Sequence record: PV357172.2
Source: a phage
Length of the DNA: 64,000 bases
Reading direction: 5' to 3' (one strand)
Shown here: piece after piece, positions 10,557 through 61,922 of the stretch
How positions within the stretch are numbered: the stretch's first letter is position 1
Layout of the letters: each line of letters starts with the position of its first letter
Made by a program: the position numbers and the translations under genes
The notes under the pieces: generated by a model
What the model was told of the DNA's origin: nothing
Database searches by the model: none
The model's input: the letters and a program-made list of their open reading frames with translations, nothing else

Positions 10557-10587
10557 ATATTTTATAAAGTGAGTTAACAAAAATTAA

Positions 10588-10660: not shown

Positions 10661-10669
10661 CCAAACAAT

Positions 10670-10744: not shown

Positions 10745-10921
10745 CCATTTTAATAGAGGATTTCGAAATGAAAGTATTTCGATTAGTAGTAAGTGACAAA
10801 CGGTTAGGTAAGAATACATCAAAATCCTTACTTGCTCATTATGGTAAAAATTGGGATGAAGTAATGGCAGAGTTTAATACTAATCACCCTTACTTGAAAG
10901 TTCACTCTATTAAGGAAGTTT

Positions 10922-11395
10922 ATGCTTATTAACAGGGTGCTTCAAGCTCTAGATCTTCCAGAGCTCTTTACTATTACCGACCCCTTAATACATCGGTATA
11001 TGGAAAAGTATAATGAAATCTCTGGTAAAAAAGGGAAACTAAAATCCTCAGAATTTAAGTTCTGTTATAGAATGGCAGCATTAAACCTCTTAAAGTACAA
11101 GAGGGAGCATAAAATCCCTATAACAGAAGGATTTGTCTATGTAATAGGTAGTCCAGCATGGCCTGGACTATATAAGATAGGTATGACAGTAGATGTGAAT
11201 GAAAGACTGTCTAGTTATCAAACATATTCGCCTTATCGTGATTACAAGTTATACCATTTCAGATTCTCCTCGGACAAGAGAAGAACTGAAAAAGCATTAC
11301 ATAACCTTCTGAAGGACTACAAAGTATCAGGAGAATGGTTTGAAGTACCTCTGTTAGACGCCTTCAAACTATTAGTAGAAAATTTGGATTGCTAA
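10922..11395 (+). CDS. GIY-YIG-like (T5orf172-domain) homing endonuclease
   Basis: GFVYVIGS...YKIGMT...ERLSSY...EWFEV matches the T5orf172 pattern; stop overlaps tRNA-Lys start. Confidence 0.65.
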   Translation: MLINRVLQALDLPELFTITDPLIHRYMEKYNEISGKKGKLKSSEFKFCYRMAALNLLKYKREHKIPITEGFVYVIGSPAWPGLYKIGMTVDVNERLSSYQTYSPYRDYKLYHFRFSSDKRRTEKALHNLLKDYKVSGEWFEVPLLDAFKLLVENLDC

Positions 11396-25393: not shown

Positions 25394-25983
25394 TGAAGGT
25401 TAAATTCTGGTCAGACTTGCACTTAGACCACCCTGGAGCACTACGTTTCCGTCCGTGGTTTAAGAACATGAAAGAGCACGATGAGTATATTCTAGATACT
25501 TTGTCCAAGCATATTGGTAAACGAACAAAACTTATTTTGCTAGGAGATATTGCAGTAGGTCGTGAAGGTCTGGCCAAATTAAAGTCGGTTATCCACAATG
25601 TCCCTAATCAACTCATTATGGGTAATCATGATGCGGAGCGTCAAGGACTGAGTATTAGGGACTTAGCGGAAGTTTATGATGATATTCAGGCTCTAGGTAA
25701 ACAGACTGGAGGTGGCAAAAAGTTTTGGCTATCTCACTGCCCTTTGCATCCCAATGAACTTCGTGGCAAACTAAATATTCATGGACACGTACATACTACT
25801 TCTCTACGTGATCCACGTTATATCAATGTTTCATTTGAAATGAGTAAAACTCCAATTCCTCTAGAGGATATTGTGTCTGGTAAGTTTACTAGCTATGATA
25901 AAGTAGTTAATTGTACTACCGGCGAGGTATTACAAATAGGGGAAGACGTAGCTGCTGTATTACGTGGGGATATAAATGTCTGA
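25393..25983 (+). CDS. metallophosphoesterase
   Basis: GDIAVG, MGNHD and HGHVH motifs. Confidence 0.6.
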   Translation: MKVKFWSDLHLDHPGALRFRPWFKNMKEHDEYILDTLSKHIGKRTKLILLGDIAVGREGLAKLKSVIHNVPNQLIMGNHDAERQGLSIRDLAEVYDDIQALGKQTGGGKKFWLSHCPLHPNELRGKLNIHGHVHTTSLRDPRYINVSFEMSKTPIPLEDIVSGKFTSYDKVVNCTTGEVLQIGEDVAAVLRGDINV

Positions 25984-30778: not shown

Positions 30779-31383
30779 TGACTTTATATGCACAACAACC
30801 TGTTCAAGTAGTACCAGACCATGAATTAAATACATGGGATTATGATTTTAAAGACTTAACTGCCACTGTACAGTTCAAATCTATGAAATTAACCTTTGCG
30901 CACACTGATATTAAAGCCTGTAAAGATCTTGAGCATAAATTAAAAGAAGCTCGTAAGATCTTTGGCAAGGCTCGGATTCCAGCTGATAACCTTATTAACG
31001 CATTAATAGATGCTGGTTATAAACTCGTAAAGACTGAGGTGAACCGCCCTAGTACTCCTGTGACTGTTGGAGGTTCCTGGACCAAAAGTGGTATCGCATT
31101 TAATCCTAAAATAACGTCGGATTTGCACAATGTTCCATGTGGTGGCGTTATAGAAAATAATTCCTCATATCGAGTTGGTGAAGATTACGGCCCTTCTGTA
31201 CAGTTGCAACATACTCAAGAAGCTTTTGAATCTGATATGCGAAGCGTAGCACCTGTGGATACTGAAGGTTTTAGAAGTCCCAGCTATGTTACTCACTTTA
31301 ATAATCTTAGGCCTGGGAGTATAAATGATACTATCCTTGAGGCGTTGGGAGCTGCTCTTAACGAAGATAAGAGAGGTAGTTAA
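30778..31383 (+). CDS. hypothetical protein (201 aa)
   Basis: Track ORF. Confidence 0.5.
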   Translation: MTLYAQQPVQVVPDHELNTWDYDFKDLTATVQFKSMKLTFAHTDIKACKDLEHKLKEARKIFGKARIPADNLINALIDAGYKLVKTEVNRPSTPVTVGGSWTKSGIAFNPKITSDLHNVPCGGVIENNSSYRVGEDYGPSVQLQHTQEAFESDMRSVAPVDTEGFRSPSYVTHFNNLRPGSINDTILEALGAALNEDKRGS

Positions 31384-31460
31384 TCCTCTAATACATGAGC
31401 CTCTACAGAGGCTCTAAAATAAAAAGAAGGTCGTCCAGACCTTAAAAACGGGAGATAATA

Positions 31461-32345
31461 ATGTATAACTTTAAAGATAAACTAAGACAAAATGCTGGTA
31501 AAACAAAACCTAAAGAGAACAATAATGTTCCTAATGCCAAAGTATTACCATTTCCAGAACTATCCCAAGAAGAAAAAGATAAGTTAGCATTTATGTTTGA
31601 TGCACTTATAGGGCTAAATGGACGTTTATATTCCTCTCTCAATATTAATGAGAAACGTTTAGTAGAGATGTTTTGTAAACGTTACCAAGTTACTTCAAAG
31701 GGCAATTCTTATAAAGAAGGTGAGAAAGCATTTACAGTCTTAAAGATTAGCGCATATGCACATCGTTTCTTAGTTTATGGGTTGCAAATGGAATACTTTA
31801 CTATCCCATCATTTAGCTCTTTCCATATCTTTGAAGATGAACGAATGAATATTGATGATCTCTACGGGGATACATACAAATACTCAGGAAGTCCATTCCA
31901 CGATGCATTAAGGAGTTACCCATCTAACTATTTACCCATTAGAGCATCTCAAGGTAAAGCTAGCATCTTTGCTGTATACTCAGGATCTAAAGCATCGGAT
32001 CTAGAAACTTATATATTTAAAGAGCGTAAATCTGTGCTTCCAGATGAAGCATTGTATAACAATCCATTGCTTCCAGAAAAAGAACCAGAAAAAATTGATG
32101 TAACCCCACCAATACCGTCTGACTCTCAGTATTTAATTTATGAGAAACAAGTTAAGTTATCCCTAGAAATTGGATTAGTTACACCGCTTGCTGCAGCATT
32201 CATAAATAGATATCTAGAAATTCCTGATGAGTTCCACACACGTTATAATACGAATATTCAGATAACGGATGAACTAATTGCGTTAGCAAAAGATACACCT
32301 ACAGATACTGAGGCGTATCAAAAAGCATACCAAGAGTTACTATAA
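31461..32345 (+). CDS. hypothetical protein (294 aa)
   Basis: Track ORF with GGGAG SD; followed by a hairpin at about 32355-32385. Confidence 0.55.
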   Translation: MYNFKDKLRQNAGKTKPKENNNVPNAKVLPFPELSQEEKDKLAFMFDALIGLNGRLYSSLNINEKRLVEMFCKRYQVTSKGNSYKEGEKAFTVLKISAYAHRFLVYGLQMEYFTIPSFSSFHIFEDERMNIDDLYGDTYKYSGSPFHDALRSYPSNYLPIRASQGKASIFAVYSGSKASDLETYIFKERKSVLPDEALYNNPLLPEKEPEKIDVTPPIPSDSQYLIYEKQVKLSLEIGLVTPLAAAFINRYLEIPDEFHTRYNTNIQITDELIALAKDTPTDTEAYQKAYQELL

Positions 32346-32792
32346 TACTCTGCATGTCTCGGTGCACAATACCTGTACCGAGACTCAAATACAAACTCTC
32401 GTTGACAGATAGCTAAATGTATGTTATCATAACTCTATGAGTTAATAGAATTAACCATTTAGAGTTGCCACACAGAAGGTGTGGTGGTTCAGTAATTTAA
32501 AATTACTAACTTGTAGCGGAGGATACGGAGCGACAGGACAAGTTAATAAGTAATTTAATATAAATTACTAGAAACATCACGAGACCTTCTGGCGGGGGGC
32601 AAAGCTCTATATGAGAACCCTGGGGGATCTTATATTTAAAATAAAAGTAAAACTTTTGACCACATAATTTACATTCAAGATGATACACCTGTTGCCGCTC
32701 ATCTGCTAGGATGGCACAACACTTTCTTCTAGACTCCTAAGTTTCTAGGAAATTGATAAGCACAAATTCTAGAGATCACACAAAAATATTCA

Positions 32793-33529
32793 TCGGATTT
32801 GCACATATTCTAGGGCAGTTTTCACTGTTCCTAGAAACTCCAGCAATAGGCGGTTAATACAGGGCGGTTATAGGGAGGGCGGTTATTTCTAGGAGACATT
32901 TTTTGAAAACACATTTCCAGAAATTACTGTCGGATTTGCACATTGTGTTTCTAGAAATTTATGGTCGGATTTGCACAAACGCCTAAGTTTTTAGGAACTC
33001 TTACTCTCCTGAAAATAGCAGCATTATTTCGGGCCGAAGGCCCATGATTGCCTGAGTTTTTAGAGCCACAAGAATTTTCACTTGTCAAGCTATTTTGCCC
33101 CATTTTGCTAATAAAATTTTACTTTTTCTGCACCTATCTCAAATTTCCCCAAATTATCTCAACTCTTCCCCAAAATCCCCGCAAATCAGGTGCTCCGCAC
33201 CAATCCTGCGCCTACTTCCTTCTAGTCCCAAAATTTCTCTCACTCTCTCATCCTCTCCTCAAACCTATACAATCACACACCCTCTCATCGAAGTCATAAA
33301 AATCTTGTCGGATTCGCACATCTCAACACATGTCGGATTTGCACATACTCTAGCTAATCCCACAGGATTCGAACGCAGTTCGTGATTGCTGGAGTTTTTG
33401 GGAAAATTCATTGTCGGATTTGCACACTATAAAAATTTTTCGGGTCGGATTTGCACACTACCAAAAATTGTCGGATTCGCACATACACGCCCACGCGTAA
33501 TCCATGGGGGCAAATGTCGGTTTTGCACA
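32793..33529. repeat. dispersed array of 10 copies of GTCGGATTTGCACA in non-coding DNA
   Basis: Copies near 32793, 32928, 32964, 33307, 33332, 33413, 33444, 33470, 33516 (two as GTCGGATTCGCACA, one GTCGGTTTTGCACA); irregular spacing. Confidence 0.8.
33100..33300 (+). repeat. about 200-nt pyrimidine-rich (C/T) tract with strand asymmetry
   Basis: Plus strand almost lacks G across this interval. Confidence 0.7.
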
Positions 33530-33559
33530 AAAGCGCAGGGCAATTGCCCTGCTCGCCTG

Positions 33560-33735
33560 AATGCGAATAAAAATAAGAATCATTCTCATTTAAAAAGTGG
33601 AATGCGAATGAGAATCATTATCATTTAGAAAACGGAATGAGAACTATTCAAGAAGTGAAATGATTCTCATTTAAAAAGTGGAGTGATTATCGATTAGCTA
33701 GTGAAATGCGAATGATAATGATTCGCATTTAAAAA
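33560..33735. repeat. tandem about 35-bp repeats with Fur-box-like palindromes
   Basis: Four to five units such as AATGCGAATGAGAATCATTATCATTTAGAAAACGG; GAGAATCATTATC matches 12 of 13 positions of the Fur consensus. Confidence 0.6.
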
Positions 33736-33762
33736 CGGAAGTGAGAAACACTGCTATTTAAG

Positions 33763-51234: not shown

Positions 51235-52468
51235 ATGACTATTGATATTAATAAGCTGAAAGAAGAACTTGGTCTGGGTGATCTGGCTAAATCTCTGGAA
51301 GGTCTGACCGCTGCTCAGAAAGCTCAGGAAGCTGAACGTATGCGTAAAGAGCAGGAAGAAAAAGAACTGGCTCGTATGAATGACTTGGTTTCTAAAGCAG
51401 TTGGCGAAGATCGTCAGAAACTGGAACAAGCTCTGGAACTGGTTAAGTCCCTGGATGAAAAATCTAAGAAGAGCGCAGAACTGTTTGCACAGACTGTAGA
51501 AAAGCAGCAGGAAACTATTGTTGGTCTCCAGGACGAAATCAAATCTCTGCTGGCAGCTCGTGAAGGGCGTTCCTTCGTCGGTGATAGTGTGGCTAAAGCA
51601 CTGTACGGTACTCAAGAAAACTTTGAAGACGAAGTGGAGAAACTGGTTCTTCTGTCCTACGTGATGGAAAAAGGTGTATTTGATACCGAACATGGTCAGA
51701 GACACTTGAAAGCTGTAAACCAGTCTTCTTCTGTAGAAGTTTCTAGTGAAAGCTATGAAACTATTTTCTCCCAGCGTATCATCCGTGACTGAGGTTAAAG
51801 GTGCTCTGACTGAAATCCACTTCAGTACTTACAAACTGGCTGCTAAGTCCTTCATTACTGATGAAACTGAAGAAGATGCAATCTTCTCCCTGCTGCCGCT
51901 GCTGCGTAAACGTCTGATTGAAGCACACGCTGTTTCTATCGAAGAAGCGTTTATGACTGGTGATGGTACTGGTAAACCTAAAGGTCTATTGACTCTTGCT
52001 AGCGAAGATGGTGCTAAAGTTACTACTGAAGCTAAAGCTGATGGTTCTGTTCTGGTAACTGCTAAGACTATCTCTAAACTGCGTCGTAAACTGGGCCGTC
52101 ATGGTTTGAAACTGTCCAAACTGGTACTGATTGTATCTATGGATGCTTACTACGATCTGCTGGAAGATGAAGAATGGCAGGATGTTGCTCAAGTTGGTAA
52201 TGATGCTGTTAAACTGCAGGGTCAGGTTGGTCGTATTTATGGTCTGCCGGTTGTAGTTTCTGAATACTTCCCAGCTAAAGCGGTTGATAAAGAGTTCGCA
52301 GTTATTGTTTATAAAGATAACTTCGTAATGCCACGTCAGCGTGCTGTTACTGTTGAACGTGAGCGTCAAGCTGGTAAACAGCGTGATGCATACTACGTTA
52401 CTCAGCGTGTTAACCTGCAACGTTACTTTAGTAATGGCGTTGTATCTGGTGCTTACGCTGCATCTTAA
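51235..52468 (+). CDS. major capsid protein precursor, reading frame interrupted by an apparent +1 frameshift
   Basis: Frame 1 (51235-51792) encodes a coiled-coil scaffold-like domain; frame 2 (from 51737) encodes the HK97-fold body with GDGTGKPKGLL; the frames overlap only at 51737-51789. Confidence 0.7.
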
Positions 52469-52489
52469 TACAGGCTTTTCAGCCGATAA

Positions 52490-52512
52490 GGAGAGCTTCG
52501 GCTCTCCTTTTT
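52490..52512 (+). terminator. rho-independent terminator
   Basis: GGAGAGCTTCGGCTCTCC hairpin followed by TTTTTT. Confidence 0.7.
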
Positions 52513-52527
52513 TATTGGGAAAAATAA

Positions 52528-53040
52528 ATGCAAATAATCACAGCTGAAGACTATAGATTATATGGCGGGTTAAAACGACCTGAACTAGAATCTGGAGTAG
52601 AGATGATGATTACTGCTGCCAATGCGCTGATTACTAGCCTTTTAGGTATGGATGATGCTGATGCGGTAGACCAGTTAATCAATACAAAACCTACTCGTAA
52701 AAAATACTTTTTAAGTTCTCCCTCGGCTACTTCAGTAACCAAAATGACTATTAACGACAAGGAGATAGATCCTGAACAGTATAAGTTGTATTCTGATGGG
52801 GTTATACTTCTTAAATTTAACCCTCCAGAAGGTTATATGGACGTAGAATATACACAAGGTGGATTTAATCCAATTCCTGAAGATCTCAAACTTGCAGCAT
52901 GTATGTTAGTAGATCATTGGCACAAACAGGATTATCGCCAAGCTAAAACAATTGGCGGAGAAACAGTTACTTTTAATAATACTAAGTCTGGTATTCCAGA
53001 GCATATTCGTACTATTATTGAAGTTTACAGGAGAGTATAA
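52528..53040 (+). CDS. head completion / head-tail adaptor candidate (170 aa)
   Basis: Position after the capsid gene. Confidence 0.45.
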   Translation: MQIITAEDYRLYGGLKRPELESGVEMMITAANALITSLLGMDDADAVDQLINTKPTRKKYFLSSPSATSVTKMTINDKEIDPEQYKLYSDGVILLKFNPPEGYMDVEYTQGGFNPIPEDLKLAACMLVDHWHKQDYRQAKTIGGETVTFNNTKSGIPEHIRTIIEVYRRV

Positions 53041-53807
53041 TGTCTCTTTCTGATTTAGCTACACAAATTATTAAGGAGCAGCTAGATAATGTTGGGCGTT
53101 CCGAGAACAATAAGAATACTGTTGTATATTCTGTTGAAACAGGACTGAAAGATCCTACTAGAGATGGTACTGTTGCTCAGGTATCTTTTAAATTCTCAAA
53201 ACCTGTATCCCAAGACCTCCTTAATGTTAGGACCGCTTCTATTCTAAAAGCAGTTTCTTCTAGCTTAGATCTAACAGGAGACTTAGGTGCTTTAGAAAGT
53301 CTTATTCAAGCAACCGCCGGTAAAAAATCCTCTGTAGGTAAAAAACGTTCTACTGGTAGAGTTCAAGTAAACTTTGGGGATCCTAGAGATGTAGAAGATG
53401 GATATTCTGGTGCAGTAACAGGTGCTTCTGGTCGTTTTGTATCTAATAGCAATATGAAGGTTATTCTGGAGTTGGTTGCTAAAGAATACTTAATAAAGGA
53501 TATGAAAAAAGCAGGAGCTCCACTTAAATTTAGAACAGGTCGTTTTGCAAATTCTCTGAAAATTAAGGATGTTATGCTTAGAGATGCAGAGACTAGTAAA
53601 GGTGCTCCTGAACTAAACGTGACATATAAGTATATGGTACGTCCATATTCTGTATTTAATCCAGCAGTATCTACATATCGAAGATTATCTCTACGACCTT
53701 ACCCAGGCGCTAGAAACCCCCAAAAACTTATTGGTGAGGCTATAGCAAAAGCTGCAAGAGACCTGATTCACTCTAGATATAAAATCAAGGTTAATCAAGG
53801 AACCTAA
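53040..53807 (+). CDS. head-tail connector / structural protein candidate (255 aa)
   Basis: Position; translationally coupled. Confidence 0.45.
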   Translation: MSLSDLATQIIKEQLDNVGRSENNKNTVVYSVETGLKDPTRDGTVAQVSFKFSKPVSQDLLNVRTASILKAVSSSLDLTGDLGALESLIQATAGKKSSVGKKRSTGRVQVNFGDPRDVEDGYSGAVTGASGRFVSNSNMKVILELVAKEYLIKDMKKAGAPLKFRTGRFANSLKIKDVMLRDAETSKGAPELNVTYKYMVRPYSVFNPAVSTYRRLSLRPYPGARNPQKLIGEAIAKAARDLIHSRYKIKVNQGT

Positions 53808-53810
53808 TAA

Positions 53811-54296
53811 ATGGATCATAGAACAAGTATTGCACAAGCTCTGGTTGACCGTATATCTAAACAGTTGGACGGTTCTCAACCCGACGAATATTTTAATAAC
53901 CTATATGGAAACGTTTCTCGTCAAACTTATAAATTTGAGGAAATACGAGAGTTTCCTTATGTGGCAGTTCATATCGGAACTGAAACTGGGCAGTATCTTC
54001 CTTCGGGCCAACAGTGGATGTTTTTAGAACTTCCAATCCTGGTGTACGATAAAGAGAAAACAGACATTCAAGAGCAACTTGAAAAACTCGTAGCGGATAT
54101 AAAAACCGTTATTGACACAGGTGGAAATTTAGAATATACTGTTAGTAAACCTAATGGATCGACCTTCCCATGTGAGGCAACTGATATGATCATTACATCA
54201 GTTAGTACAGATGAGGGTCTACTGGCCCCATATGGTTTAGCAGAAATAAATGTAACAGTGAGGTATCAGCCTCCACGTAGGTCACTTCGCAGATAA
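53811..54296 (+). CDS. tail completion / tail terminator candidate (161 aa)
   Basis: Immediately upstream of the tail tube gene. Confidence 0.45.
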   Translation: MDHRTSIAQALVDRISKQLDGSQPDEYFNNLYGNVSRQTYKFEEIREFPYVAVHIGTETGQYLPSGQQWMFLELPILVYDKEKTDIQEQLEKLVADIKTVIDTGGNLEYTVSKPNGSTFPCEATDMIITSVSTDEGLLAPYGLAEINVTVRYQPPRRSLRR

Positions 54297-54322
54297 GTTA
54301 CAGATTAGGAGAAAATAATTAA

Positions 54323-55720
54323 ATGTCTTTACAACTATTACGTAATACTCGAATCTTCGTGTCTACGGTTAAGACTGGTCATAATAAGACCAACACGCAA
54401 GAGATTCTAGTTCAGGATGATATTTCTTGGGGTCAGGACAGTAACTCAACAGATATTACTGTTAATGAAGCTGGTCCGCGTCCAACTCGTGGTTCTAAAC
54501 GTTTTAACGACTCTTTAAACGCGGCTGAGTGGAGTTTCTCTACTTATATCCTGCCATATAAAGATAAAACTACTAACAAACAGATTGTCCCTGACTATAT
54601 GTTATGGCATGCTCTTTCTAGTGGTAAAGCTCTTAACCTAGAAGGTGCTACAGGAGCACATAATAACGAAACCAATTTTATGGTTAACTTTAAAGATAAC
54701 GCGTACCACGAACTGGCAATGCTGCATATCTACATCCTGACTGACAAAGCATGGAGTTACATCGACTCTTGCCAGATCAACCAGGCAGAAGTTAACGTTG
54801 ATATTGAGGATATTGGTCGTGTAACTTGGTCAGGTAATGGTAACCAGCTTATTCCTTTGGATGAGCAACCATTTGACCCTGATACTGTAGGTATTGATGA
54901 TGAAACTTATATGACTATTCAGAGTTCTTATATCAAGAACAAGTTGACTATCCTGAAAATTAAGGATATGGATTCTGATAAGGCATATGATATCCCTATT
55001 ACTGGGGGTACTTTCACCATTAATAACAATATTACGTACCTAACCCCGAATATTATGTCTCGTGTTAATATTCCAATTGGTTCTTTTACTGGTGCTTTTG
55101 AATTAACGGGTTCATTAACTGCTTATCTGAATGATAAATCTCTTGGTTCTATGGAGCTGTACAAAGATCTTATCAAGACTCTGAAGGTAGTTAACCGCTT
55201 CGAAATTGCTCTAGTACTTGGTGGTGAATACGATGAAGAACGTCCTGCTGCTATTCTGGTAGCTAAACAAGCACACGTTAATATTCCTACTATTGAAACT
55301 GATGATGTACTTGGTACTTCAGTAGAGTTTAAAGCTATTCCATCTGATCTGGATGCTGGTGATGAAGGTTACTTAGGCTTCTCTAGTAAATATACCAAAA
55401 CAACTATTAATAACTTGATTGTTAATGGTGATGGTGCTACTAATGCTGTAACCGCAATTACTGTTAAATCTGCTGGTGATGCTACTACAGTAAACAACTC
55501 GGCTACTCTTCAAATGAGTGTTGAAGTTACTCCTCCTTCCGCAAAGAATAAGGAAGTTACTTGGGCTATCACCGCCGGTGATGCAGCCACAATTGATCCA
55601 GAATCTGGCCTATTAACTGCGGACACCACTAAAACTGGTGAAGTAACTGTAGAAGCTACTGCTAAAGATGGTTCTGGAGTTAAAGGTACTAAACAGATTA
55701 CTGTAGCAGCAGGTGGCTAA
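54323..55720 (+). CDS. tail tube protein pb6-like with C-terminal Ig-like (Big_2-type) domain (465 aa)
   Basis: Length close to T5 pb6 as I recall it; C-terminal 110 aa show an Ig-like pattern (TVKSAGDATTV...TWAITAGDAATID). Confidence 0.7.
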   Translation: MSLQLLRNTRIFVSTVKTGHNKTNTQEILVQDDISWGQDSNSTDITVNEAGPRPTRGSKRFNDSLNAAEWSFSTYILPYKDKTTNKQIVPDYMLWHALSSGKALNLEGATGAHNNETNFMVNFKDNAYHELAMLHIYILTDKAWSYIDSCQINQAEVNVDIEDIGRVTWSGNGNQLIPLDEQPFDPDTVGIDDETYMTIQSSYIKNKLTILKIKDMDSDKAYDIPITGGTFTINNNITYLTPNIMSRVNIPIGSFTGAFELTGSLTAYLNDKSLGSMELYKDLIKTLKVVNRFEIALVLGGEYDEERPAAILVAKQAHVNIPTIETDDVLGTSVEFKAIPSDLDAGDEGYLGFSSKYTKTTINNLIVNGDGATNAVTAITVKSAGDATTVNNSATLQMSVEVTPPSAKNKEVTWAITAGDAATIDPESGLLTADTTKTGEVTVEATAKDGSGVKGTKQITVAAGG

Positions 55721-55724
55721 TTAA

Positions 55725-56624
55725 ATGTACTACTCTCTAATGAGAGAGTCAAAAGTTATAGTTGAGTATGATGGTAGGGCATTTCATTTTGATGCCCTAT
55801 CAAACTATGATATACAGACTTCCTACGAGGAATTCAAGACTCTTCGTAGGACTGTTCATCGTAGAACTAACTATGCAGACTCTATTATAAATGCTCAAAC
55901 CCCCTCTTCTATCTCTCTAGCAGTAAATTTCAGTAATACTCTTACTGAGGCTAACTTCTTTGAATGGTTAGGTTTTGATAGAAAAGGTAATACTTTCTTA
56001 CTCCCGCTATATAGTAGTAATATTGAACCTATTATGTTCAATATCTATATAGTAAATAAAGATAATAACTGTGTATATTTTGAAAACTGTTATGTATCTA
56101 CAGTAGATTTTTCTTTAGATAAGAACATACCAATTCTTAATGTTGGTATTGAGTCTGGGAAATTCTCAGAAGTATCTACGTATAGAGAAGCAGCTTCTAT
56201 TATACAGGGTGAAGTAATGTCTTACAGCCCAGTAATAGCTTCTACTAATGGCAGCATCTTACCCGGTCTTATTTCTGCCTCTTTATCTTTCCAGCAGCAG
56301 TGCTCCTGGAGAGAGGATAAGAGTGTTTTTGATATAAATAAAATTTATAATAATAAAAGAGCCTATGTAACTGAAATGAATGCTTCGGCAACCATTTCTC
56401 TGTACTACTTAAAACGTTTTGCAGGAGATATGGTTTATAATATAGAACCGGAGACAGATGTACCTTTAATGATAAGAAATAATAATATTTCTATAGATTT
56501 TCCTTCAGCACGTATTACAAAACGCCTAGAGTTCTCAGATGTGTATAGAGTTGAGTGGGATATTATACCTATTGCTTCTTCAGACCCAGTGAGAATAGAT
56601 TTCTTTGGAGAAATTAAAAAATGA
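55725..56624 (+). CDS. tail structural protein (collar p140-like candidate, 299 aa)
   Basis: Position between the tube gene and the chaperones. Confidence 0.4.
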   Translation: MYYSLMRESKVIVEYDGRAFHFDALSNYDIQTSYEEFKTLRRTVHRRTNYADSIINAQTPSSISLAVNFSNTLTEANFFEWLGFDRKGNTFLLPLYSSNIEPIMFNIYIVNKDNNCVYFENCYVSTVDFSLDKNIPILNVGIESGKFSEVSTYREAASIIQGEVMSYSPVIASTNGSILPGLISASLSFQQQCSWREDKSVFDINKIYNNKRAYVTEMNASATISLYYLKRFAGDMVYNIEPETDVPLMIRNNNISIDFPSARITKRLEFSDVYRVEWDIIPIASSDPVRIDFFGEIKK

Positions 56625-57025
56625 TTAATTTAAAAGATATTACTCTTGATACTCGTACTATTACTCTTTCCTACCCAGGTATGCCGAACTTTAAACTAGA
56701 ACTTAACTATATGTCTCGTGCTACCTCTAAACGTGTTATTTCTTCTGCTAAACGCGATGAATGGGTTAATGGTACTTTGGTTCAGGTACAGGATGATGAT
56801 AAGTTCATTGAAGCCTTTGTTGACGCAGCTATTAAAGGTTGGACTGGTTTGACTGTAGGTGACGTTGAAAAACTGATGCTGATTGAAACAGACGCTGATC
56901 CTGCTACTGAAGTTCCATTTAGTCGTGATAATGCTGTAATGCTTATGCAGAACTCTGCTGCGTTTGATTCTTGGATCAACCAGACAGTGTTCCATTTAGA
57001 CACTTTTCGTAGCTCAAAAGCGTAA
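56621..57025 (+). CDS. tail assembly chaperone candidate (134 aa)
   Basis: Position upstream of the tape measure gene. Confidence 0.5.
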   Translation: MINLKDITLDTRTITLSYPGMPNFKLELNYMSRATSKRVISSAKRDEWVNGTLVQVQDDDKFIEAFVDAAIKGWTGLTVGDVEKLMLIETDADPATEVPFSRDNAVMLMQNSAAFDSWINQTVFHLDTFRSSKA

Positions 57026-57035
57026 AGAATTACTA

Positions 57036-57455
57036 GATGCTGTTGCTGACTTTGCTGATAAATGTATTAAAAGCTCAGCATCTAAAATGACTAAACAACA
57101 ATATTTAATACTTTGTGAATCAATGGGTATAGAACCTGATCCTAAGGCTATGCCTGTTGAACTTGAAGACTTTCCACCTATTGTAGCTATTAGTATGAAT
57201 ATTTATAATAGTCTAGTTGACTGTTTCATACCTGGCGACTTTCCTATATTTATAGGTAAAGACAAGGCTGCTTTAGGTGTTTTATTCGATATTTATGGGA
57301 TTACTGATCCCATAGAAAAAGAATTTGTTCTACACATTATCAATATATTTGATTCTAAAGCTGTAGACGCTGCACGTAAACGTGCTGAGAAGCATAAGCC
57401 GCAAAACGGTAGAATACCTAACGTTAAGCCACATGCTAAATCTCGAGCACGGTAA
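57036..57455 (+). CDS. second tail assembly chaperone candidate
   Basis: Frame is open from ATG 57036 (track start 57087); directly upstream of the tape measure gene. Confidence 0.45.
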   Translation, partial: DAVADFADKCIKSSASKMTKQQYLILCESMGIEPDPKAMPVELEDFPPIVAISMNIYNSLVDCFIPGDFPIFIGKDKAALGVLFDIYGITDPIEKEFVLHIINIFDSKAVDAARKRAEKHKPQNGRIPNVKPHAKSRAR

Positions 57456-57490
57456 AAGTTTCCTCCAATGGGCGTTCCACGATGAGGCTT

Positions 57491-57521
57491 GGCTCTGGGT
57501 GATTTGCCCAGAGCCTTTTTT
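57491..57521 (+). terminator. rho-independent terminator
   Basis: GGCTCTGGG...CCCAGAGCC hairpin followed by TTTTTT. Confidence 0.7.
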
Positions 57522-57538
57522 ATTGGGAAAAATAAAAT

Positions 57539-60500
57539 ATGACTGATAAGCTAATACGAGAATTACTAATAGACGTTAAACAGAAGGGGGCAACCCGTAC
57601 TGCAAAGTCTATTGAAAACGTATCTGATGCATTAGAGAACGCTGCTGCTGCTTCTGAACTAACAAATGAACAGTTAGGTAAAATGCCCAAAACTCTATAC
57701 TCCATTGAGAGGGCAGCAGATAGAGCAGCGAAAAGTCTTACTAAAATGCAAGCTAGCAGAGGTATGCTTAGTATTACTAAATCTATTAATGATATAGGAG
57801 CTAAGTTAGATGATCTCGCTATTACAATGATTGAAGTAGCAGATAAATTAGAAATCGGATTTGATGGAGTTTCTAGATCTGTTAAAACAATGGGCAATGA
57901 TGTTGCAGCTGCAACAGAGAAAGTTCAAGATAGGCTGTATGATACTAATAGAGCCTTAGGTGGTACAGCTAGAGGTTTTAATGATACTACTGGTGCCGCT
58001 GGTAGAGCTTCTAGAGCTATCGGTAATACCTCTGGCTCAGCACGCGGTGCAACTCGTGATTTCGCGGCAATGGCTAAGATAGGGGGTGGTTTACCTATCC
58101 TGTATGCTGCAATTGCATCTAATATATTTGTTCTTCAGTCCGCTTTTGAGGGCCTAAAAGTAGGTGATCAATTAAACAGACTGGAACATTTTGGCACTAT
58201 CGTTGGGACTATAACGGGTACACCAGTACAGACGTTAGCTCTGGCACTACAAAACGCTACTAACGGTGCTGTATCCTTTGAAGAAGCTATGAGACAAGCG
58301 TCTTCTGCTTCAGCTTATGGATTTGATAGTAAACAATTAGAACAGTTCGGACTAGTAGCCCGTCGTGCTGCTGCTGTTCTTGGTGTTGACATGACCGACG
58401 CACTTAACCGTGTAATTAAAGGCGTATCTAAGCAAGAAATAGAACTTCTAGACGAACTTGGTGTTACTATTCGCCTTAACGATGCGTATGCAAATTATGT
58501 TAAACAGCTAAATGCTACCAGTACAGGCATTAAATATACTGTAGATAGCCTGACTACCTACCAGAGACAACAAGCATATGCAAATGAAGTTATAGCAGAA
58601 TCTACTAGACGTTTCGGATACCTAGATGATGCTCTTAAGTCAACTTCTTGGGAGCTATTTGCTGCTAATGCTAACTCTGCCCTAAGAAGCCTACAACAAA
58701 GCGCAGCAACATACTTAACCCCTGTTGTAGACACCATCAATGCTTTCTTATATCAAACTAAATCTTCTCAGATGAGGATTTCCGCAATGGCACGCAGTGC
58801 CTCTGCTAAAACCACTCCTACTGAAAATGTTACGGCTCTCATAGAAAACGCTGTAGGTGCACAAGAAGATCTAGATACTTACCTTAAAGAAAGTGATGCT
58901 CGTGTTAAGAAAGCTCAAGAGATTAAACAGCAGTTAGATGATCTCAAGGCAAAACAAGCTGTTACTGCTCCAGTAGCTAACGCACTTACTGCTGTGGGCA
59001 TTGGAGGCGATGAAAGTAATAAATTAGTAGTACAACTTACTAATGAACTGGCTCGTCAAAACCAAGAAATAGCAGAACGCGCTAAAACCGAAAAAGTTCT
59101 CAAACAAGCAGTGGAAGATACTGGGCAAGCCTTACTGCGTAATAGTAATCTAGCTAAGCAATTAGGAGCCAATATGCAGTATGCTGCCACTGCTATTCCT
59201 GGAGAGACCGGGGTATTTAAGATTGATCCTAATAATCTTAAAGCGGCTGCAGAGGTACAGAAGAACTATGACCAGCTAAAGAAAAGCTCTAGTGATACTG
59301 CAAATAATATAAAAATGGCAGCTACTAACATTACCACTGCCAAAAAAGCATCAGGTGACTTAGTTAGCATTATAAAAGCAGTAGGAGATACTGCTAAGGT
59401 AACAGGGCAAAATACAGATACTCTAGTTAAAAATCTGAATCTAGGCTTTGAAAATCTAGATCAAATGAAGGCTGCGCAGAAAGGTCTATCAGAATATGTA
59501 ACTGCTATGGATAAGAATGAGCAGAATGCACTGGAAGTAGCTAAACGTAAAGACGAGGTTTATAACCAGACTAAAGACAAAGCTAAAGCGGAGGCAGCAG
59601 CTAGAGAGGTGCTACTACGTCAGCAACAGGAACAGCTCACAGCAGCAAAAGCACTACTGGCTGTTAATCCAAACGATCCAGAGGCTCTAAAGCAGGTAGC
59701 TAAGATAGAAACAGAGATTCTTAATACTAAAGCTCAGGGATTTGAGAACGCTAAGAAAACTAAAGATCTGACAGATAAAATTCTTGGTGTAGATCGTGAG
59801 ATAGCTCTCCTGAATGACCGCACTATGACGAGTACTCAGTATCGTCTAGCACAATTAAGGCTAGAGCTACAATTAGAGCAGGAAAAAACGGAATTATATT
59901 CTAAACAAGCGGATGGCCAAGCTAAAGCAGAACAGTCTAGACGTGCCCAAGCACAAATAAGTAGAGAACTGTGGGAAGCAGAGAAACAAGCTACTGCCTC
60001 GCATGTGTCAGCTCTCATGGATGCCTTAGAAGTTAACCAAACTCAGAGAAATGTCACTGGTCAATCCCAGATTCTTACTGAAAGGTTATCCATTCTGCAA
60101 CAACAGCTGGAGTTGTCTAAAGGTAATACTGAAGAAGAAATTAAATATCGTAATGAGATTTATAAAACTTCAGCAGCCTTAGAACAGCTTAAAAAGCAAA
60201 GAGAGAGTCAGATGCAGCAACAGGTAGGATCTTCATTAGGTGCTGTGTACACTCCTACAACTGGTCTATCTGGGGCAGATAAAGATTTTGCTGATATGCA
60301 GAATAAGATGGCTTCTTATGACCAGGCTATTTCTAAGCTGTCTGAGTTAAATTCCGAAGCAACAGCTGTAGGTCAAAGCCTTGGTAATTTAACTAATGCT
60401 ATGATTCATTTCTCACGGGGATCTCTAGATACTACGTCTATGATTGCGGCAGGTATGCAAGCTGTATCTTCCGTAATTCAGTATAGTACTAGCCAGCAGG

Positions 60501-61198
60501 TAAGTGCTATTGATGCAGCTATTGCAGCAGAGCAAAAACGTGATGGTAAATCCGAGGAGTCTAAAGCTAAACTCAAGAAACTGGAAGCGGAAAAGGTTAA
60601 GATCCAGCAGGATGCAGCTAAGAAGCAAATCATTATTCAGACGGCAGTAGCAGTAATGCAAGCGGCAACAGCTGTACCATACCCGTTCTCTATTCCTTTG
60701 ATGGTGGCGGCAGGTTTGGCAGGTGCGTTGTCTCTTGCTCAAGCATCTTCTGCATCGAGTATGTCAAGTATTGCTGATTCTGGAGCGGATACAACAAGTT
60801 ATTTAACCTTAGGAGAGCGTCAAAAGAATATAGATGTGTCCATGTCTGCTAATGCAGGTGAACTATCTTATATCCGAGGCGATAAAGGAATAGGCGGTGC
60901 TAACTCTTTCGTTCCTCGTGCTGAGGGTGGTAATATGTACCCAGGGGTTAGTTACCAAATGGGTGAACATGGTACAGAAGTAGTTACCCCTATGGTTCCT
61001 ATGAAAGCTACACCTAATGATGAGCTAAAAACCTCATCTAACTCAACTTCAGGAAGACCTATCATCTTGAATATTAGTGCTATGGATGCTGCAAGTTTCA
61101 GAGAGTTTGCTTCTAGTAATAGTAGTGCTCTAAGAGACGCAGTAGAATTAGCTCTGAATGAGAACGGTGCTAGTCTGAAAACATTAGGAAATTCTTAA
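57539..61198 (+). CDS. tail tape measure protein pb2-like (1219 aa)
   Basis: Very long helical ORF with a hydrophobic segment and C-terminal metallopeptidase-like region; length equals T5 pb2 as I recall it. Confidence 0.8.
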   Translation: MTDKLIRELLIDVKQKGATRTAKSIENVSDALENAAAASELTNEQLGKMPKTLYSIERAADRAAKSLTKMQASRGMLSITKSINDIGAKLDDLAITMIEVADKLEIGFDGVSRSVKTMGNDVAAATEKVQDRLYDTNRALGGTARGFNDTTGAAGRASRAIGNTSGSARGATRDFAAMAKIGGGLPILYAAIASNIFVLQSAFEGLKVGDQLNRLEHFGTIVGTITGTPVQTLALALQNATNGAVSFEEAMRQASSASAYGFDSKQLEQFGLVARRAAAVLGVDMTDALNRVIKGVSKQEIELLDELGVTIRLNDAYANYVKQLNATSTGIKYTVDSLTTYQRQQAYANEVIAESTRRFGYLDDALKSTSWELFAANANSALRSLQQSAATYLTPVVDTINAFLYQTKSSQMRISAMARSASAKTTPTENVTALIENAVGAQEDLDTYLKESDARVKKAQEIKQQLDDLKAKQAVTAPVANALTAVGIGGDESNKLVVQLTNELARQNQEIAERAKTEKVLKQAVEDTGQALLRNSNLAKQLGANMQYAATAIPGETGVFKIDPNNLKAAAEVQKNYDQLKKSSSDTANNIKMAATNITTAKKASGDLVSIIKAVGDTAKVTGQNTDTLVKNLNLGFENLDQMKAAQKGLSEYVTAMDKNEQNALEVAKRKDEVYNQTKDKAKAEAAAREVLLRQQQEQLTAAKALLAVNPNDPEALKQVAKIETEILNTKAQGFENAKKTKDLTDKILGVDREIALLNDRTMTSTQYRLAQLRLELQLEQEKTELYSKQADGQAKAEQSRRAQAQISRELWEAEKQATASHVSALMDALEVNQTQRNVTGQSQILTERLSILQQQLELSKGNTEEEIKYRNEIYKTSAALEQLKKQRESQMQQQVGSSLGAVYTPTTGLSGADKDFADMQNKMASYDQAISKLSELNSEATAVGQSLGNLTNAMIHFSRGSLDTTSMIAAGMQAVSSVIQYSTSQQVSAIDAAIAAEQKRDGKSEESKAKLKKLEAEKVKIQQDAAKKQIIIQTAVAVMQAATAVPYPFSIPLMVAAGLAGALSLAQASSASSMSSIADSGADTTSYLTLGERQKNIDVSMSANAGELSYIRGDKGIGGANSFVPRAEGGNMYPGVSYQMGEHGTEVVTPMVPMKATPNDELKTSSNSTSGRPIILNISAMDAASFREFASSNSSALRDAVELALNENGASLKTLGNS

Positions 61199-61205
61199 AA
61201 CTGGA

Positions 61206-61232
61206 GGAGGACTTTGAGTCCTCCTTTTCTTT
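61206..61232 (+). terminator. rho-independent terminator
   Basis: GGAGGAC-TTTGA-GTCCTCC hairpin followed by a T-run. Confidence 0.7.
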
Positions 61233-61307
61233 ATGGAAAAATAAAAATTTCTTGATAAAATTTTCTAATACTATTATAATATTGTTATTAAAGAGGAGAA
61301 ATTAACT

Positions 61308-61922
61308 ATGAGATTACCAGACCCATACACGAATCCAGAACTTTCAGGCTTAGGATTCGAAAGTGTTAACCTGATTGATAATGACCCAGTAATTCGTGAT
61401 GAGTTACCAAATGGTAAAGTTAACGAAGTTAAGGTATCTGCTCAATACTGGGGTATAAATATTTCTTATCCAGAATTATTTCCAGATGAATATAGTGTTC
61501 TAGATGCTTTTATTCTAGAATACAAAAGGACTGGTGGTTATATAGATGTTATATTACCCCAATACGAAGCTTTTAGAGTTAGAGGTAATACTAGTCTAGT
61601 AAATATACCTGCTGGACAGAAGGGTTCTAATATAACTATGGATACAAAAGGGCTTCTTACAGGTACTCCAAAACCGGGGGATCTATTTAAGCTGTCTAGC
61701 CACCCAAAAGTATATAAAATAACATCATTTAACAAATCAGGTAATACATGGTCTATAAACTTATACCCTGATTTATTTATAACTACTACTGGAGCGGAGA
61801 AGCCAGTATTCAATGGAATACTATTTAGAACAAAACTCATGAATGGTGATGCTTTTGGATCTACACTAAATAATAACGGAACATACTCCAACATCTCATT
61901 AAATTTACGGGAAAGTCTATGA
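61308..61922 (+). CDS. distal tail protein pb9-like (204 aa)
   Basis: Position after the tape measure gene; same length as T5 pb9 as I recall it. Confidence 0.65.
   Translation: MRLPDPYTNPELSGLGFESVNLIDNDPVIRDELPNGKVNEVKVSAQYWGINISYPELFPDEYSVLDAFILEYKRTGGYIDVILPQYEAFRVRGNTSLVNIPAGQKGSNITMDTKGLLTGTPKPGDLFKLSSHPKVYKITSFNKSGNTWSINLYPDLFITTTGAEKPVFNGILFRTKLMNGDAFGSTLNNNGTYSNISLNLRESL

What the first reader, a model, noticed from the sequence alone, without database searches (positions are those of the whole stretch)
52490..61247. Conserved late-region element: terminator hairpin fused to TTTTTTATTGGGAAAAATAAA
After the capsid gene, before the tape measure gene and after it (52490-52527, 57491-57538, 61206-61247), a GC-rich hairpin is followed by a T-run and then [T]TATTGGGAAAAATAAA, or TATGGAAAAATAAAAA in the third copy. 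In two cases this runs directly into the ATG without a classical SD. It may be a combined terminator and late promoter or translation-initiation element.
Basis: seen in the sequence. Interest (0 to 1): 0.45.

Follow-up and report, generated by a model that had tools for sequence, protein, structure and literature searches.

The report
Leaky terminators fused to ribosome sites
Three hairpin-plus-T-run sites in the late genes of a T5-like phage are ordinary transcription terminators: at two of them the conserved sequence that follows is the weak ribosome-binding site of the next gene, and at the third it is the upstream A/T block of the already known late promoter P-G25.

Summary
The window is a T5-like phage (Tequintavirus). 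GC-rich hairpins followed by T-runs lie after the capsid gene (S1), before the tape-measure gene pb2 (S2) and after it (S3). S1 and S2 share an exact 23-mer. S3 matches S2 at 27 of 36 positions, which none of 200 shuffles reached.

The hairpins keep their pairing through compensatory changes across the family Demerecviridae, so they are conserved intrinsic terminators. At S1 and S2 the motif TTTTTTATT-GGGA-AAAATAA(A)-ATG is the terminator U-tract followed by a weak Shine-Dalgarno sequence and an A/U spacer. Relatives carry GGAGG, AGGT, GGGT or AGGTGA at the same place, and this purine block moves with the start codon. GenBank records of relatives already annotate these sites as terminator plus RBS. 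There is no room for a promoter, and T5 late promoters are sigma-70 type.

At S3 the similar A-rich stretch is the -43 A/T block of the experimentally validated late promoter P-G25.

Most likely function (inferred, not shown): partial terminators plus weak RBSs step expression down from abundant proteins (capsid, tail tube) to rare ones (head completion, tape measure).

This is ordinary and essentially known. One thing remains unexplained: an invariant 35-nt non-coding block just upstream of the S2 hairpin.

The parts
52473..52484 (+). S1 accessory small hairpin, GGCT-TTTC-AGCC, between the capsid stop (TAA 52466-52468) and the terminator
   Evidence: Folded. The GGC...GCC stem is kept with different loops in Spivey, PM135, PSTCR5, KEY and KKP_3711. 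No variable site in 26 genomes.
52488..52509 (+). S1 intrinsic-terminator hairpin, AAGGAGAGC-UUCG-GCUCUCCUU
   Evidence: Terminator scan. -14.6 kcal/mol, z = -4.2. 5 of 9 pairs show compensatory double changes and none is broken in 10 diverse relatives. Annotated as a terminator in the Spivey, KEY and HASG4 records.
52508..52516 (+). S1 U-tract, TTTTTTATT (the first two T can extend the stem)
   Evidence: Read directly. TTTTTTATT follows the hairpin in all enterobacterial relatives and in Vibrio phage phi 3.
52517..52530 (+). S1 ribosome-binding site of the head-completion gene: weak SD GGGA (52517-52520), A/U spacer AAAATAA, ATG 52528
   Evidence: Anti-SD duplex -4.2 kcal/mol, against -5.4 to -11.6 for most late genes. 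The same position holds GGAGG (Vibrio phi 3, D17), AGGT (KEY) or GGGT (Spivey, PM135, KKP_3711). The Spivey record annotates GGGT as the RBS. M1 is invariant in the protein alignment.
57456..57490 (+). Invariant non-coding block upstream of the S2 terminator, AAGTTTCCTCCAATGGGCGTTCCACGATGAGGCTT. It can form a two-part hairpin (CCUC 57462-57465 with GAGG 57484-57487). Function unknown.
   Evidence: No variable site in 24 genomes. Conserved across genera. One copy in the window. A 1-nt indel among close relatives argues against coding. Similar fold in all versions, -7.3 to -9.6 kcal/mol, with little covariation. No Rfam match.
57491..57515 (+). S2 intrinsic-terminator hairpin, GGCUCUGGGU-GAUUU-GCCCAGAGCC
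   Evidence: Top hit of the terminator scan. -20.3 kcal/mol, z = -6.1. 7 of 17 predicted pairs in the S2 consensus fold, all 7 in this hairpin, show double changes across 8 relatives. Annotated as a terminator in Spivey and KEY.
57516..57524 (+). S2 U-tract, TTTTTTATT
   Evidence: Read directly. Conserved in relatives. In T5 itself a homing-endonuclease-like gene is inserted right after it.
57525..57541 (+). S2 ribosome-binding site of the tape-measure / pore-forming protein pb2: weak SD GGGA (57525-57528), spacer AAAATAAAAT, ATG 57539
   Evidence: Anti-SD duplex -4.2 kcal/mol. Relatives have GGA, GGTGA, AGGAG or GGATGA here. In KKP_3711 the SD (AGGTGA) has moved downstream together with the start codon. 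The Spivey record annotates GGA as the RBS. pb2 was identified by N-terminal sequencing according to the AY692264 note.
61204..61226 (+). S3 intrinsic-terminator hairpin after pb2, GAGGAGGACU-UUG-AGUCCUCCUU
   Evidence: Terminator scan. -15.5 kcal/mol. A hairpin plus T-run sits at this position in all relatives examined. Annotated as a terminator in Spivey and KEY.
61228..61251 (+). S3 T-run followed by the A/T block TATGGAAAAATAAAAATTTC. This is the -43 / UP-like block of promoter P-G25, not an RBS.
   Evidence: It lies directly upstream of the -35 hexamer. It contains AAAAATT, the -43 block reported for T5-like promoters (PMC3326045) and seen in the 13-copy early-promoter family of this window. 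No variable site in 13 genomes. The GG is not kept in KEY, KKP_3711 or PM135.
61252..61280 (+). Late promoter P-G25: TTGATA (-35), 17 nt, TATAAT (-10)
   Evidence: 11 of 12 match. Annotated 'promoter P-G 25' at the homologous place in T5 AY692264. Late transcripts from PG25 were detected by primer extension in T5-infected cells (PMC7472727).
61293..61310 (+). Strong RBS (GAGGAG) and ATG 61308 of the distal tail protein pb9
   Evidence: Anti-SD duplex -9.1 kcal/mol. Sequence read.

Best explanation
S1 and S2 are compact 'terminator plus weak RBS' junctions. Each is a canonical intrinsic terminator: a GC-rich stem-loop followed by UUUUUUAUU. Its U-tract runs straight into the translation-initiation region of the next gene, which consists of a 4-nt degenerate Shine-Dalgarno (GGGA), a 7-10 nt A/U-rich spacer and the ATG.

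No promoter lies between the hairpin and the start codon. The head-completion gene and the tape-measure gene pb2 can therefore only be translated from transcripts that read through the terminator. The likely effect is that a partial terminator and a weak SD together step expression down from very abundant products upstream (major capsid protein; tail tube and chaperones) to low-copy products downstream.

S3 is a terminator of the same kind, but it is followed by the known sigma-70 late promoter P-G25. The motif-like A-rich stretch there is that promoter's upstream -43 / UP-like block.

The near-identity of the three tails most likely reflects common ancestry of the intergenic cassettes, held in place by strong purifying selection.

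Shown: the structures, their conservation and covariation, the SD-like behaviour of the GG block, the absence of a promoter at S1 and S2, and the identity of S3 with P-G25.

Inferred: that termination is partial, and that the purpose is to set protein stoichiometry.
For: - Hairpin stability and U-tracts.
- Compensatory base changes keep both stems across Demerecviridae. At S1, 5 of 9 pairs have double changes and none is broken. At S2, 7 pairs have double changes.
- Homologous positions in Providencia, Klebsiella, Proteus, Erwinia, Enterobacter and Vibrio phages all read hairpin, T-run, purine block, A/T spacer, ATG. The purine block is GGAGG in the Vibrio phages, AGGT or GGGT in others, and shifts together with the start codon in KKP_3711 S2.
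- The SD duplex energy is -4.2 kcal/mol at S1 and S2, among the weakest of the 17 late-gene starts checked.
- Of about 19 clean hairpin plus T-run sites in the 64-kb window, only S1 and S2 have an ORF start within 25 nt.
- Independent annotators marked these very sites as terminator plus RBS (Spivey MK630230; KEY MZ616364; HASG4).
- The elements are far more conserved than synonymous sites and occur in about 500 T5-like genomes.
- S3 is the annotated P-G25, validated as a late promoter in vivo (PMC7472727). T5-like promoters carry an AAAAATT block near -43 (PMC3326045; family D1).
- Between the promoter-like site at 48014 and P-J5 at 54112, the scan finds on the + strand no strong promoter upstream of the head-completion gene. 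It finds none between P-J5 and pb2.
Against: - No 3'-end or 5'-end mapping for T5 late transcripts was found in the library, so neither termination nor its efficiency is demonstrated.
- The perfect U-tracts and stable stems would predict efficient termination. That makes the read-through needed for the essential downstream genes an assumption.
- SD function alone does not explain why the 12 nt after the U-tract are invariant in Markadamsvirinae and identical at two sites. Nor does it explain why the same 23-mer, TTTTTTATTGGGTAAAATAAATG, appears at S1 in PM135 and at S2 in KEY.
- The invariant 35-nt block before the S2 hairpin is not accounted for.
- S1 variants in L064, L070, L072 and L077 are not mirrored at S2. 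Ongoing gene conversion therefore cannot explain the identity.
Confidence: 0.78

Rival explanations
1. One reading: the motif is a combined terminator and late promoter, or some special late-transcription initiation element shared by all three sites.
For: - All three sites lie in the late region, and the three tails resemble each other more than chance allows.
- At S3 a promoter really does follow.
- S2 carries CTGATA-N18-TAATAG in register with the P-G25 hexamers.
Against: - At S1 and S2 only 18-23 nt lie between hairpin and ATG, with no -35/-10 pair. A transcript started further downstream would lack the start codon.
- T5 late promoters are sigma-70 type (PMC7472727).
- The -10-like hexamer inside pb2 mutates to TGATAG or TTATAG in close relatives, and there is no counterpart in Spivey or PM135.
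- The GG block tracks the start codon like an SD.
Confidence: 0.03
2. The identical 12-15 nt after the U-tract (AUUGGGAAAAAUAAA), possibly together with the adjacent hairpins, is an operator for a trans-acting phage or host factor. Candidates are a translational repressor, an antiterminator or a nuclease. Such a factor would co-regulate the head-completion and tape-measure genes.
For: - Sequence identity at two sites and near-zero diversity exceed what a weak SD needs.
- The same 23-mer is used at S1 in one genus and at S2 in another.
- Accessory conserved hairpins lie upstream of both terminators, including the invariant 35-nt block at S2.
Against: - Outside Markadamsvirinae the spacer is free to vary (TAAAAT, TACATA, TACTAC, TAATAAA, TGAAATTCAT), and the two sites of one genome differ. 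No specific operator sequence is therefore conserved at family level.
- No candidate factor was identified.
- No Rfam family matches.
Confidence: 0.1
3. The hairpins act mainly after transcription. They would serve as 3' stabilisers of the upstream capsid and tail-tube mRNAs after endonucleolytic cutting in the A/U-rich tail, or as 5' stem-loops protecting the downstream message, rather than as transcription terminators.
For: - Stable stems, one with a UUCG tetraloop, are followed by a single-stranded A/U-rich stretch, the kind of context RNase E prefers (established knowledge; sequences).
- The downstream genes are essential, so full-length transcription must occur.
Against: - Every defining feature of an intrinsic terminator is present, including an uninterrupted U6 immediately after the stem.
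- Processing and termination are not mutually exclusive. Nothing in the sequence argues specifically for cleavage.
Confidence: 0.07
4. The repeated tail is the footprint of a mobile or duplicated cassette, for example one associated with homing endonucleases that target these intergenic sites, and has no function of its own.
For: - T5 carries an endonuclease-like gene inserted exactly inside the S2 motif.
- Other relatives carry an endonuclease insertion next to S1.
- S2 and S3 are 27/36 identical, including the first codons of pb2 against the -35 of P-G25.
Against: - The motif is present in genomes without any insertion. It is under strong purifying selection and sits at fixed homologous positions across the family.
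- Homing endonucleases choose conserved targets; they do not create them.
- There are never more than two exact copies per genome.
Confidence: 0.02

Closest known systems
Intrinsic (Rho-independent) terminators placed after highly expressed phage structural genes and read through at a low rate, for example T-phi after the capsid gene 10 of phage T7 (recalled from general knowledge, not tested here)
   Same: A GC-rich stem-loop plus U-tract lies directly after the major capsid gene. Essential low-copy structural genes lie downstream with no promoter of their own, so they depend on read-through.
   Different: - T5 uses the host RNA polymerase.
- Here the U-tract is fused to the next gene's RBS with only 18-23 nt to the ATG.
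- An accessory upstream hairpin is conserved.
- Termination efficiency is unknown for T5.
T5 late promoter P-G25 with its -43 A/T-rich block (annotated in AY692264; validated in vivo in PMC7472727; A/T block described for T5-like promoters in PMC3326045)
   Same: S3 is this promoter: TTGATA-17-TATAAT preceded by GGAAAAATAAAAATT and followed by the strong RBS AAAGAGGAGAAA. The sequence is almost identical to T5.
   Different: Nothing is different at S3. S1 and S2 share only the A-rich stretch and the T-run with it and have no promoter hexamers.
Weak Shine-Dalgarno plus A/U-rich leader translation-initiation regions (A/U-rich leaders are known to aid 30S binding through ribosomal protein S1; general knowledge)
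   Same: A 4-nt SD able to form G-U, G-C, G-C, A-U pairs with the anti-SD sits 7-10 nt before the ATG in an unstructured A/U context.
   Different: The 5' edge of the ribosome-binding site is a stable terminator hairpin. The whole region is invariant in hundreds of genomes, which is more than an ordinary RBS.
Cis-acting antitermination or attenuation RNAs upstream of terminators (HK022 put RNAs, leader attenuators). Considered only for the 35-nt block at S2.
   Same: A conserved, probably structured RNA lies immediately upstream of a terminator that must be read through for an essential gene.
   Different: - No alternative (antiterminator) pairing is conserved.
- There is only one small hairpin rather than two put-like stem-loops.
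- No covariation and no Rfam match.

Membership tests
Intrinsic (Rho-independent) transcription terminator (S1, S2, S3) | Stable GC-rich stem with a 3-8 nt loop | tested here: met
   -14.6, -20.3 and -15.5 kcal/mol, loops of 3-5 nt. 0, 0 and 3 of 200 shuffles fold as well. Listed by the terminator scan.
Intrinsic (Rho-independent) transcription terminator (S1, S2, S3) | U-rich tract immediately 3' of the stem | tested here: met
   UUUUUUAUU at S1 and S2, UUUUCUUUAU at S3.
Intrinsic (Rho-independent) transcription terminator (S1, S2, S3) | Lies downstream of a stop codon on the coding strand | tested here: met
   20-38 nt (S1, S2) and 5 nt (S3) after the stops of the capsid, chaperone and pb2 genes.
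Intrinsic (Rho-independent) transcription terminator (S1, S2, S3) | Structure, rather than sequence, maintained in evolution | tested here: met
   Compensatory double changes at 5 of 9 pairs (S1) and at 7 pairs (S2). For S3 a hairpin of different sequence is present in every relative.
Intrinsic (Rho-independent) transcription terminator (S1, S2, S3) | RNA 3' ends generated at the U-tract by RNA polymerase | not testable with these tools
   No end-mapping data for T5-like phages were found.
Shine-Dalgarno ribosome-binding site (motif at S1 and S2) | Purine-rich element complementary to the 16S 3' end, 5-10 nt upstream of the start codon | tested here: met
   GGGA, spacers of 7 nt (S1) and 10 nt (S2), duplex -4.2 kcal/mol. 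This is weak but non-zero.
Shine-Dalgarno ribosome-binding site (motif at S1 and S2) | The element stays at SD distance from the start codon in relatives and can be replaced by a canonical SD | tested here: met
   GGAGG (Vibrio phi 3, D17), AGGT (KEY), GGGT (Spivey, PM135, KKP_3711). In KKP_3711 S2 the AGGTGA has moved with the ATG.
Shine-Dalgarno ribosome-binding site (motif at S1 and S2) | The downstream ATG is the real start codon | tested here: met
   Start positions and N-termini are conserved in all relatives. T5 pb2 was 'identified by N-terminal sequencing' according to the AY692264 note.
Shine-Dalgarno ribosome-binding site (motif at S1 and S2) | Translation depends on the element | not testable with these tools
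   Needs mutagenesis or toeprinting.
Sigma-70 (T5 late) promoter at S1 or S2 | -35 and -10 hexamers 16-18 nt apart, upstream of the gene's start codon | tested here: not met
   No such pair lies between hairpin and ATG. The only hexamer-like matches lie inside the coding sequence and are not conserved.
Sigma-70 (T5 late) promoter at S3 (P-G25) | -35 and -10 hexamers with 17-nt spacing; homologous to the mapped T5 promoter | tested here: met
   TTGATA-17-TATAAT, 11 of 12. Annotated P-G 25 in T5. Late primer-extension product in T5 (PMC7472727).
UP-element-like -43 A/T block (motif-like stretch at S3) | A/T-rich block directly upstream of the -35 hexamer, as in other T5 promoters | tested here: met
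   AAAAATT lies 2 nt before TTGATA. The same block lies 3 nt before TTGCT in the 13 early promoters of the window. Described in PMC3326045. Its effect on promoter strength was not tested.
Attenuator or antiterminator RNA (35-nt block at S2) | Conserved alternative pairing that competes with the terminator stem | tested here: not met
   UGGGCG could pair with the 3' arm GCCCA in T5-likes, but this is lost in PM135 and weakened in Spivey (sequences). RNAalifold finds no such helix.

The most novel reading that the evidence does not exclude
The S1 and S2 junctions are more than terminator plus RBS. On this reading the invariant tail, together with the conserved accessory hairpins, forms a dedicated regulatory RNA module. 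The main accessory element is the single-copy 35-nt block 57456-57490, with its CCUC..UGG-GCGUU-CCA..GAGG hairpin. A phage or host factor would bind this module to set terminator read-through or tape-measure translation. Alternatively, the module would be released as a 3'-UTR-derived small RNA with an anti-SD-like UUUCCUCC seed.
Probability: 0.1. Interest if true: 0.5.

Novelty: already known. Interest (0 to 1): 0.15.

Why it matters
The result gives a tidy picture of how the T5 late region is punctuated.
- After terL: a terminator followed by a promoter.
- After the capsid gene: a terminator followed only by a weak RBS.
- P-J5 before the tail-tube gene.
- Before the tape-measure gene: a terminator followed only by a weak RBS.
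- After the tape-measure gene: a terminator followed by P-G25.

This layout fits the copy numbers of virion proteins. It could guide engineering of T5-like therapeutic phages or the reuse of these compact 40-nt step-down cassettes. It does not reveal a new mechanism.

The only open point of some interest is the ultra-conserved non-coding block in front of the tape-measure gene.

Tried and rejected
- **Promoter at S1/S2.** No hexamers lie upstream of the ATG. The candidates inside the coding sequence (ATGCAA-N18-TATAGA at S1, CTGATA-N18-TAATAG at S2) are not conserved.
- **Coding extension through S2.** I considered the +1-frame ORF 57382-57546, or read-through of the chaperone stop. Rejected because close relatives differ by a 1-nt indel inside the block, Spivey lacks one nucleotide, and conservation includes every position rather than showing codon periodicity.
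- **SD sequestration.** UUUCCU or UCCAAU of the block could pair with AUUGGGAAA in T5-likes. This is not kept in KKP_3711, where the SD moved, and is weak in Vibrio phi 3 (sequences).
- **Antiterminator pairing** of the block with the terminator 3' arm is not kept in PM135.
- **U-tract/A-tract mini-hairpin** displaying GGG in its loop (MFE) is not conserved in KEY or KKP_3711.
- **Small RNA with targets in the window.** 6 matches to the complement against 4.85 expected.
- **T5 nick site.** The block is single-copy, whereas nick sites are multiple. The BF23 paper gives no consensus to compare with.
- **Rfam.** Only tRNAs at the gathering threshold, and nothing relevant at E up to 5 in 52300-61500.
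- **One IMG/VR pattern scan was mistyped** (an extra C) and returned unrelated GC-rich contigs. The corrected gapped pattern returned only Demerecviridae plus chance hits.
- **Concerted evolution of S1 and S2.** S1 variants in L064, L070, L072 and L077 are not mirrored at S2.
- **Literature search** for T5 transcript-end mapping found nothing usable.


Full report
**What the window is.**
- The region 52000-58000 matches 551 phage records. It is 95% identical to Escherichia phage phiAPCEc03 and 89% identical to T5.
- By alignment to the annotated T5 record AY692264, the ORFs are, in order:
  - terminase, portal, pb10 and protease;
  - the major head protein pb8, ending at 52468;
  - the head-completion gene (52528), tail completion and tail terminator;
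  - the tail tube pb6 (54323) and a minor tail protein;
  - two chaperone ORFs (56621, 57087);
  - the tape-measure / pore-forming protein pb2 (57539-61198);
  - pb9 (61308).

**Observation.**
The hairpins are stable: -14.6, -20.3 and -15.5 kcal/mol. They are among the top hits of the terminator scan.
- S1 and S2 share the exact 23-mer CCTTTTTTATTGGGAAAAATAAA.
- The repeat finder groups the three sites on its own as family D12.
- S2 and S3 are identical at 27 of 36 positions in register. The best match in 200 dinucleotide shuffles of the window was 25.
- The similarity is therefore real and not a composition artefact.

**Distribution.**
- The exact 21-mer occurs in IMG/VR at most twice per contig, about 5 kb apart. 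All near-complete contigs that hold it are 104-122 kb.
- The S1 62-mer is found in 509 phage records, 334 at 99% or more. The S2 86-mer is found in 544 records. By organism names and the records inspected, these are T5-like phages.
- In 24-26 distinct Markadamsvirinae genomes the hairpins and tails are almost invariant. Diversity is 0.003-0.049, against 0.13-0.27 at third-codon positions of the flanking genes.

**What the hairpins are.**
- I extracted the homologous intergenic regions from these relatives:
  - Providencia PSTCR5 (Priunavirus);
  - Klebsiella Spivey (Sugarlandvirus);
  - Proteus PM135 (Novosibvirus);
  - Erwinia KEY, Enterobacter KKP_3711 and phage Eos;
  - Vibrio phi 3 and Vibrio D17.
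- Every one has a stem-loop plus T-run at the same three gene junctions.
- The stems differ in sequence in the distant phages but keep their pairing. At S1, 5 of 9 pairs show double compensatory changes and none is broken. At S2, 7 pairs show them. Close relatives L070 and L072 even show GGAGAGC/GCTCTCC changed to AGAGAGC/GCTCTCT.
- With the immediately following UUUUUUAUU, these are canonical intrinsic terminators.
- The GenBank records of Spivey, KEY and HASG4 already annotate them as such.

**What the motif is at S1 and S2.**
- In the Vibrio phages the place of T5's TTGGGAAAAATAAATG is taken by TTGGAGGTAATAAAATG and TTTTAGGAGGTAAGAAATG, that is, a canonical Shine-Dalgarno sequence.
- Other genera have GGGT, AGGT, GGA, GGTGA or GGATGA.
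- In KKP_3711 S2 the tail reads TTTTTTATTGTCTAAAATACAGGTGAATAATG. The purine block has moved away from the terminator and stayed at SD distance from the ATG.
- The Spivey record annotates GGGT and GGA as the RBSs.
- The GGGA of the motif can form four pairs with the anti-SD, at -4.2 kcal/mol. This puts S1 and S2 among the weakest of the 17 late-gene starts I checked; most are -5.4 to -11.6.
- The start codons are conserved. According to the T5 GenBank note, pb2 was identified by N-terminal sequencing.
- The motif is therefore the terminator U-tract, a degenerate SD, an A/U spacer and the start codon.

**No promoter at S1 or S2.**
- Only 18-23 nt separate the hairpin from the ATG, and they contain no -35/-10 pair.
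- T5 late genes are transcribed from ordinary sigma-70 promoters (PMC7472727).
- The weak hexamer-like matches inside the coding sequences are not conserved.

**What the motif-like stretch is at S3.**
- The terminator is followed by GGAAAAATAAAAATTTC, then TTGATA-17-TATAAT, then the strong RBS AAAGAGGAGAAA.
- The T5 record annotates this as promoter P-G 25.
- Klimuk et al. saw PG25 and PJ5 transcripts appear late in infection.
- T5-like promoters are reported to carry an AAAAATT block near -43 (PMC3326045). The 13-copy early-promoter family of this window shows the same block.
- In KEY, KKP_3711 and PM135 the GG at S3 is absent while the A-tract before the -35 hexamer remains.
- The third copy therefore has a different function, as an UP-like block of a known promoter, even if it shares ancestry with S2.

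**How it most likely works.**
- Among about 19 clean hairpin plus T-run sites in the window, only S1 and S2 have an ORF start within 25 nt.
- The other late-region terminators, after terL at 47964 and S3, are followed by promoters.
- The head-completion gene and pb2 have no promoter of their own, so they must be expressed from read-through transcripts.
- From general knowledge, the upstream genes encode very abundant virion proteins (capsid, tail tube) and the first downstream genes encode low-copy ones.
- I therefore infer that a partial terminator combined with a weak RBS steps expression down. This inference is not demonstrated: I found no transcript-end data.
- S1 variants are not mirrored at S2, so the identity of the two tails is not maintained by gene conversion. 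It is maintained by selection on an inherited or convergent optimum. The same 23-mer occurs at S1 in PM135 and at S2 in KEY.

**What remains unexplained.**
- Both terminators are preceded by a conserved accessory hairpin.
- At S1 it is a small GGC..GCC hairpin whose loop varies among genera.
- At S2 it is a 35-nt block, AAGTTTCCTCCAATGGGCGTTCCACGATGAGGCTT. The facts about it are:
  - it is invariant in 24 genomes;
  - it is about 85% conserved across genera whose flanking coding DNA no longer aligns;
  - it is single-copy;
  - it is non-coding, because close relatives differ by a 1-nt indel;
  - it can fold into the same two-part hairpin everywhere, but with almost no covariation;
  - it has no Rfam match.
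- Pairing with the pb2 SD, pairing with the terminator arm, and trans targets in the window were all examined and are not supported.

**Verdict.**
- The features are of well-known kinds and are already annotated in public records, so novelty and interest are low.

Noticed in passing
window 51235-52468 (break near 51790): The major capsid gene is split into two ORFs (51235-51792 and 51746-52468). The window lacks 143 nt that are present in T5 and in every one of more than 40 relatives compared. This is an assembly error or a defective genome.
   Followed up: partly
window 57456-57490: An invariant, single-copy, non-coding 35-nt block (TTTCCTCCAATGGGCGTTCCACGATGAGG core) lies between the chaperone stop and the S2 terminator. 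It is conserved across at least five genera and folds into a similar hairpin everywhere. No function could be assigned.
   Followed up: partly
L001 (T5 AY692264) 10520-11300; L067 and L106: In T5 itself an endonuclease-like gene (T5p137, 'similar to RB49p240') is inserted inside the S2 motif, directly after TTTTTTATT. pb2 then starts from ACAGGAAAACATTAGATG, overlapping the inserted gene's stop. The annotated start of T5p137 reads through the terminator hairpin and is probably too far upstream.
   Followed up: partly
L070, L072, L077 about 9290-9950 (homologous to window 52469-52472): Some relatives carry an insertion of about 650 nt, annotated 'endonuclease' in related records, between the capsid stop codon and the S1 hairpins. 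L070 and L072 also show the compensatory stem variant AGAGAGC/GCTCTCT.
   Followed up: no
window 57000-57455: The second chaperone ORF (ATG 57087) has essentially no SD (-0.1 kcal/mol). Its reading frame is open from 57000 and overlaps the end of the first chaperone ORF (stop at 57025) in the +1 frame. This suggests a G/GT-type programmed frameshift of unusual direction. The Erwinia phage KEY record annotates overlapping chaperone CDSs.
   Followed up: partly
window 57514-57549 versus 61223-61258: The S2-S3 similarity extends past the A-rich block. ATGACTGATAA (start codon and codons 2-4 of pb2) aligns with TTTCTTGATAA (the -35 hexamer of P-G25). This may be a relic of a duplication from which the promoter evolved.
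   Followed up: partly
window 1179-26649: A family of 13 near-identical early promoters (AAAAATTnnnTTGCT-N17-TATAAT followed by ATAAATTGATGAGAG) is interleaved with 19 tRNA genes at 3.4-15 kb.
   Followed up: no
window 25576-25601 and 31108-33743: There are clusters of short repeats. GTCGGATTTGCACA occurs 5-6 times at 31.1-33.5 kb, with a related copy containing a perfect DnaA box (TTATCCACA) at 25576-25601. Four 27-mers, AATCATTCTCATTTAAAAAGTGGAATG, lie at 33578-33743. They may correspond to the repeat- and DnaA-box-rich non-coding region described for T5 and BF23 (PMC10644984).
   Followed up: no
window 54112-54140: TTGACA-17-TATACT lies inside the tail-terminator gene, just upstream of the tail-tube gene. 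It corresponds to the annotated and in vivo validated T5 late promoter P-J5.
   Followed up: partly
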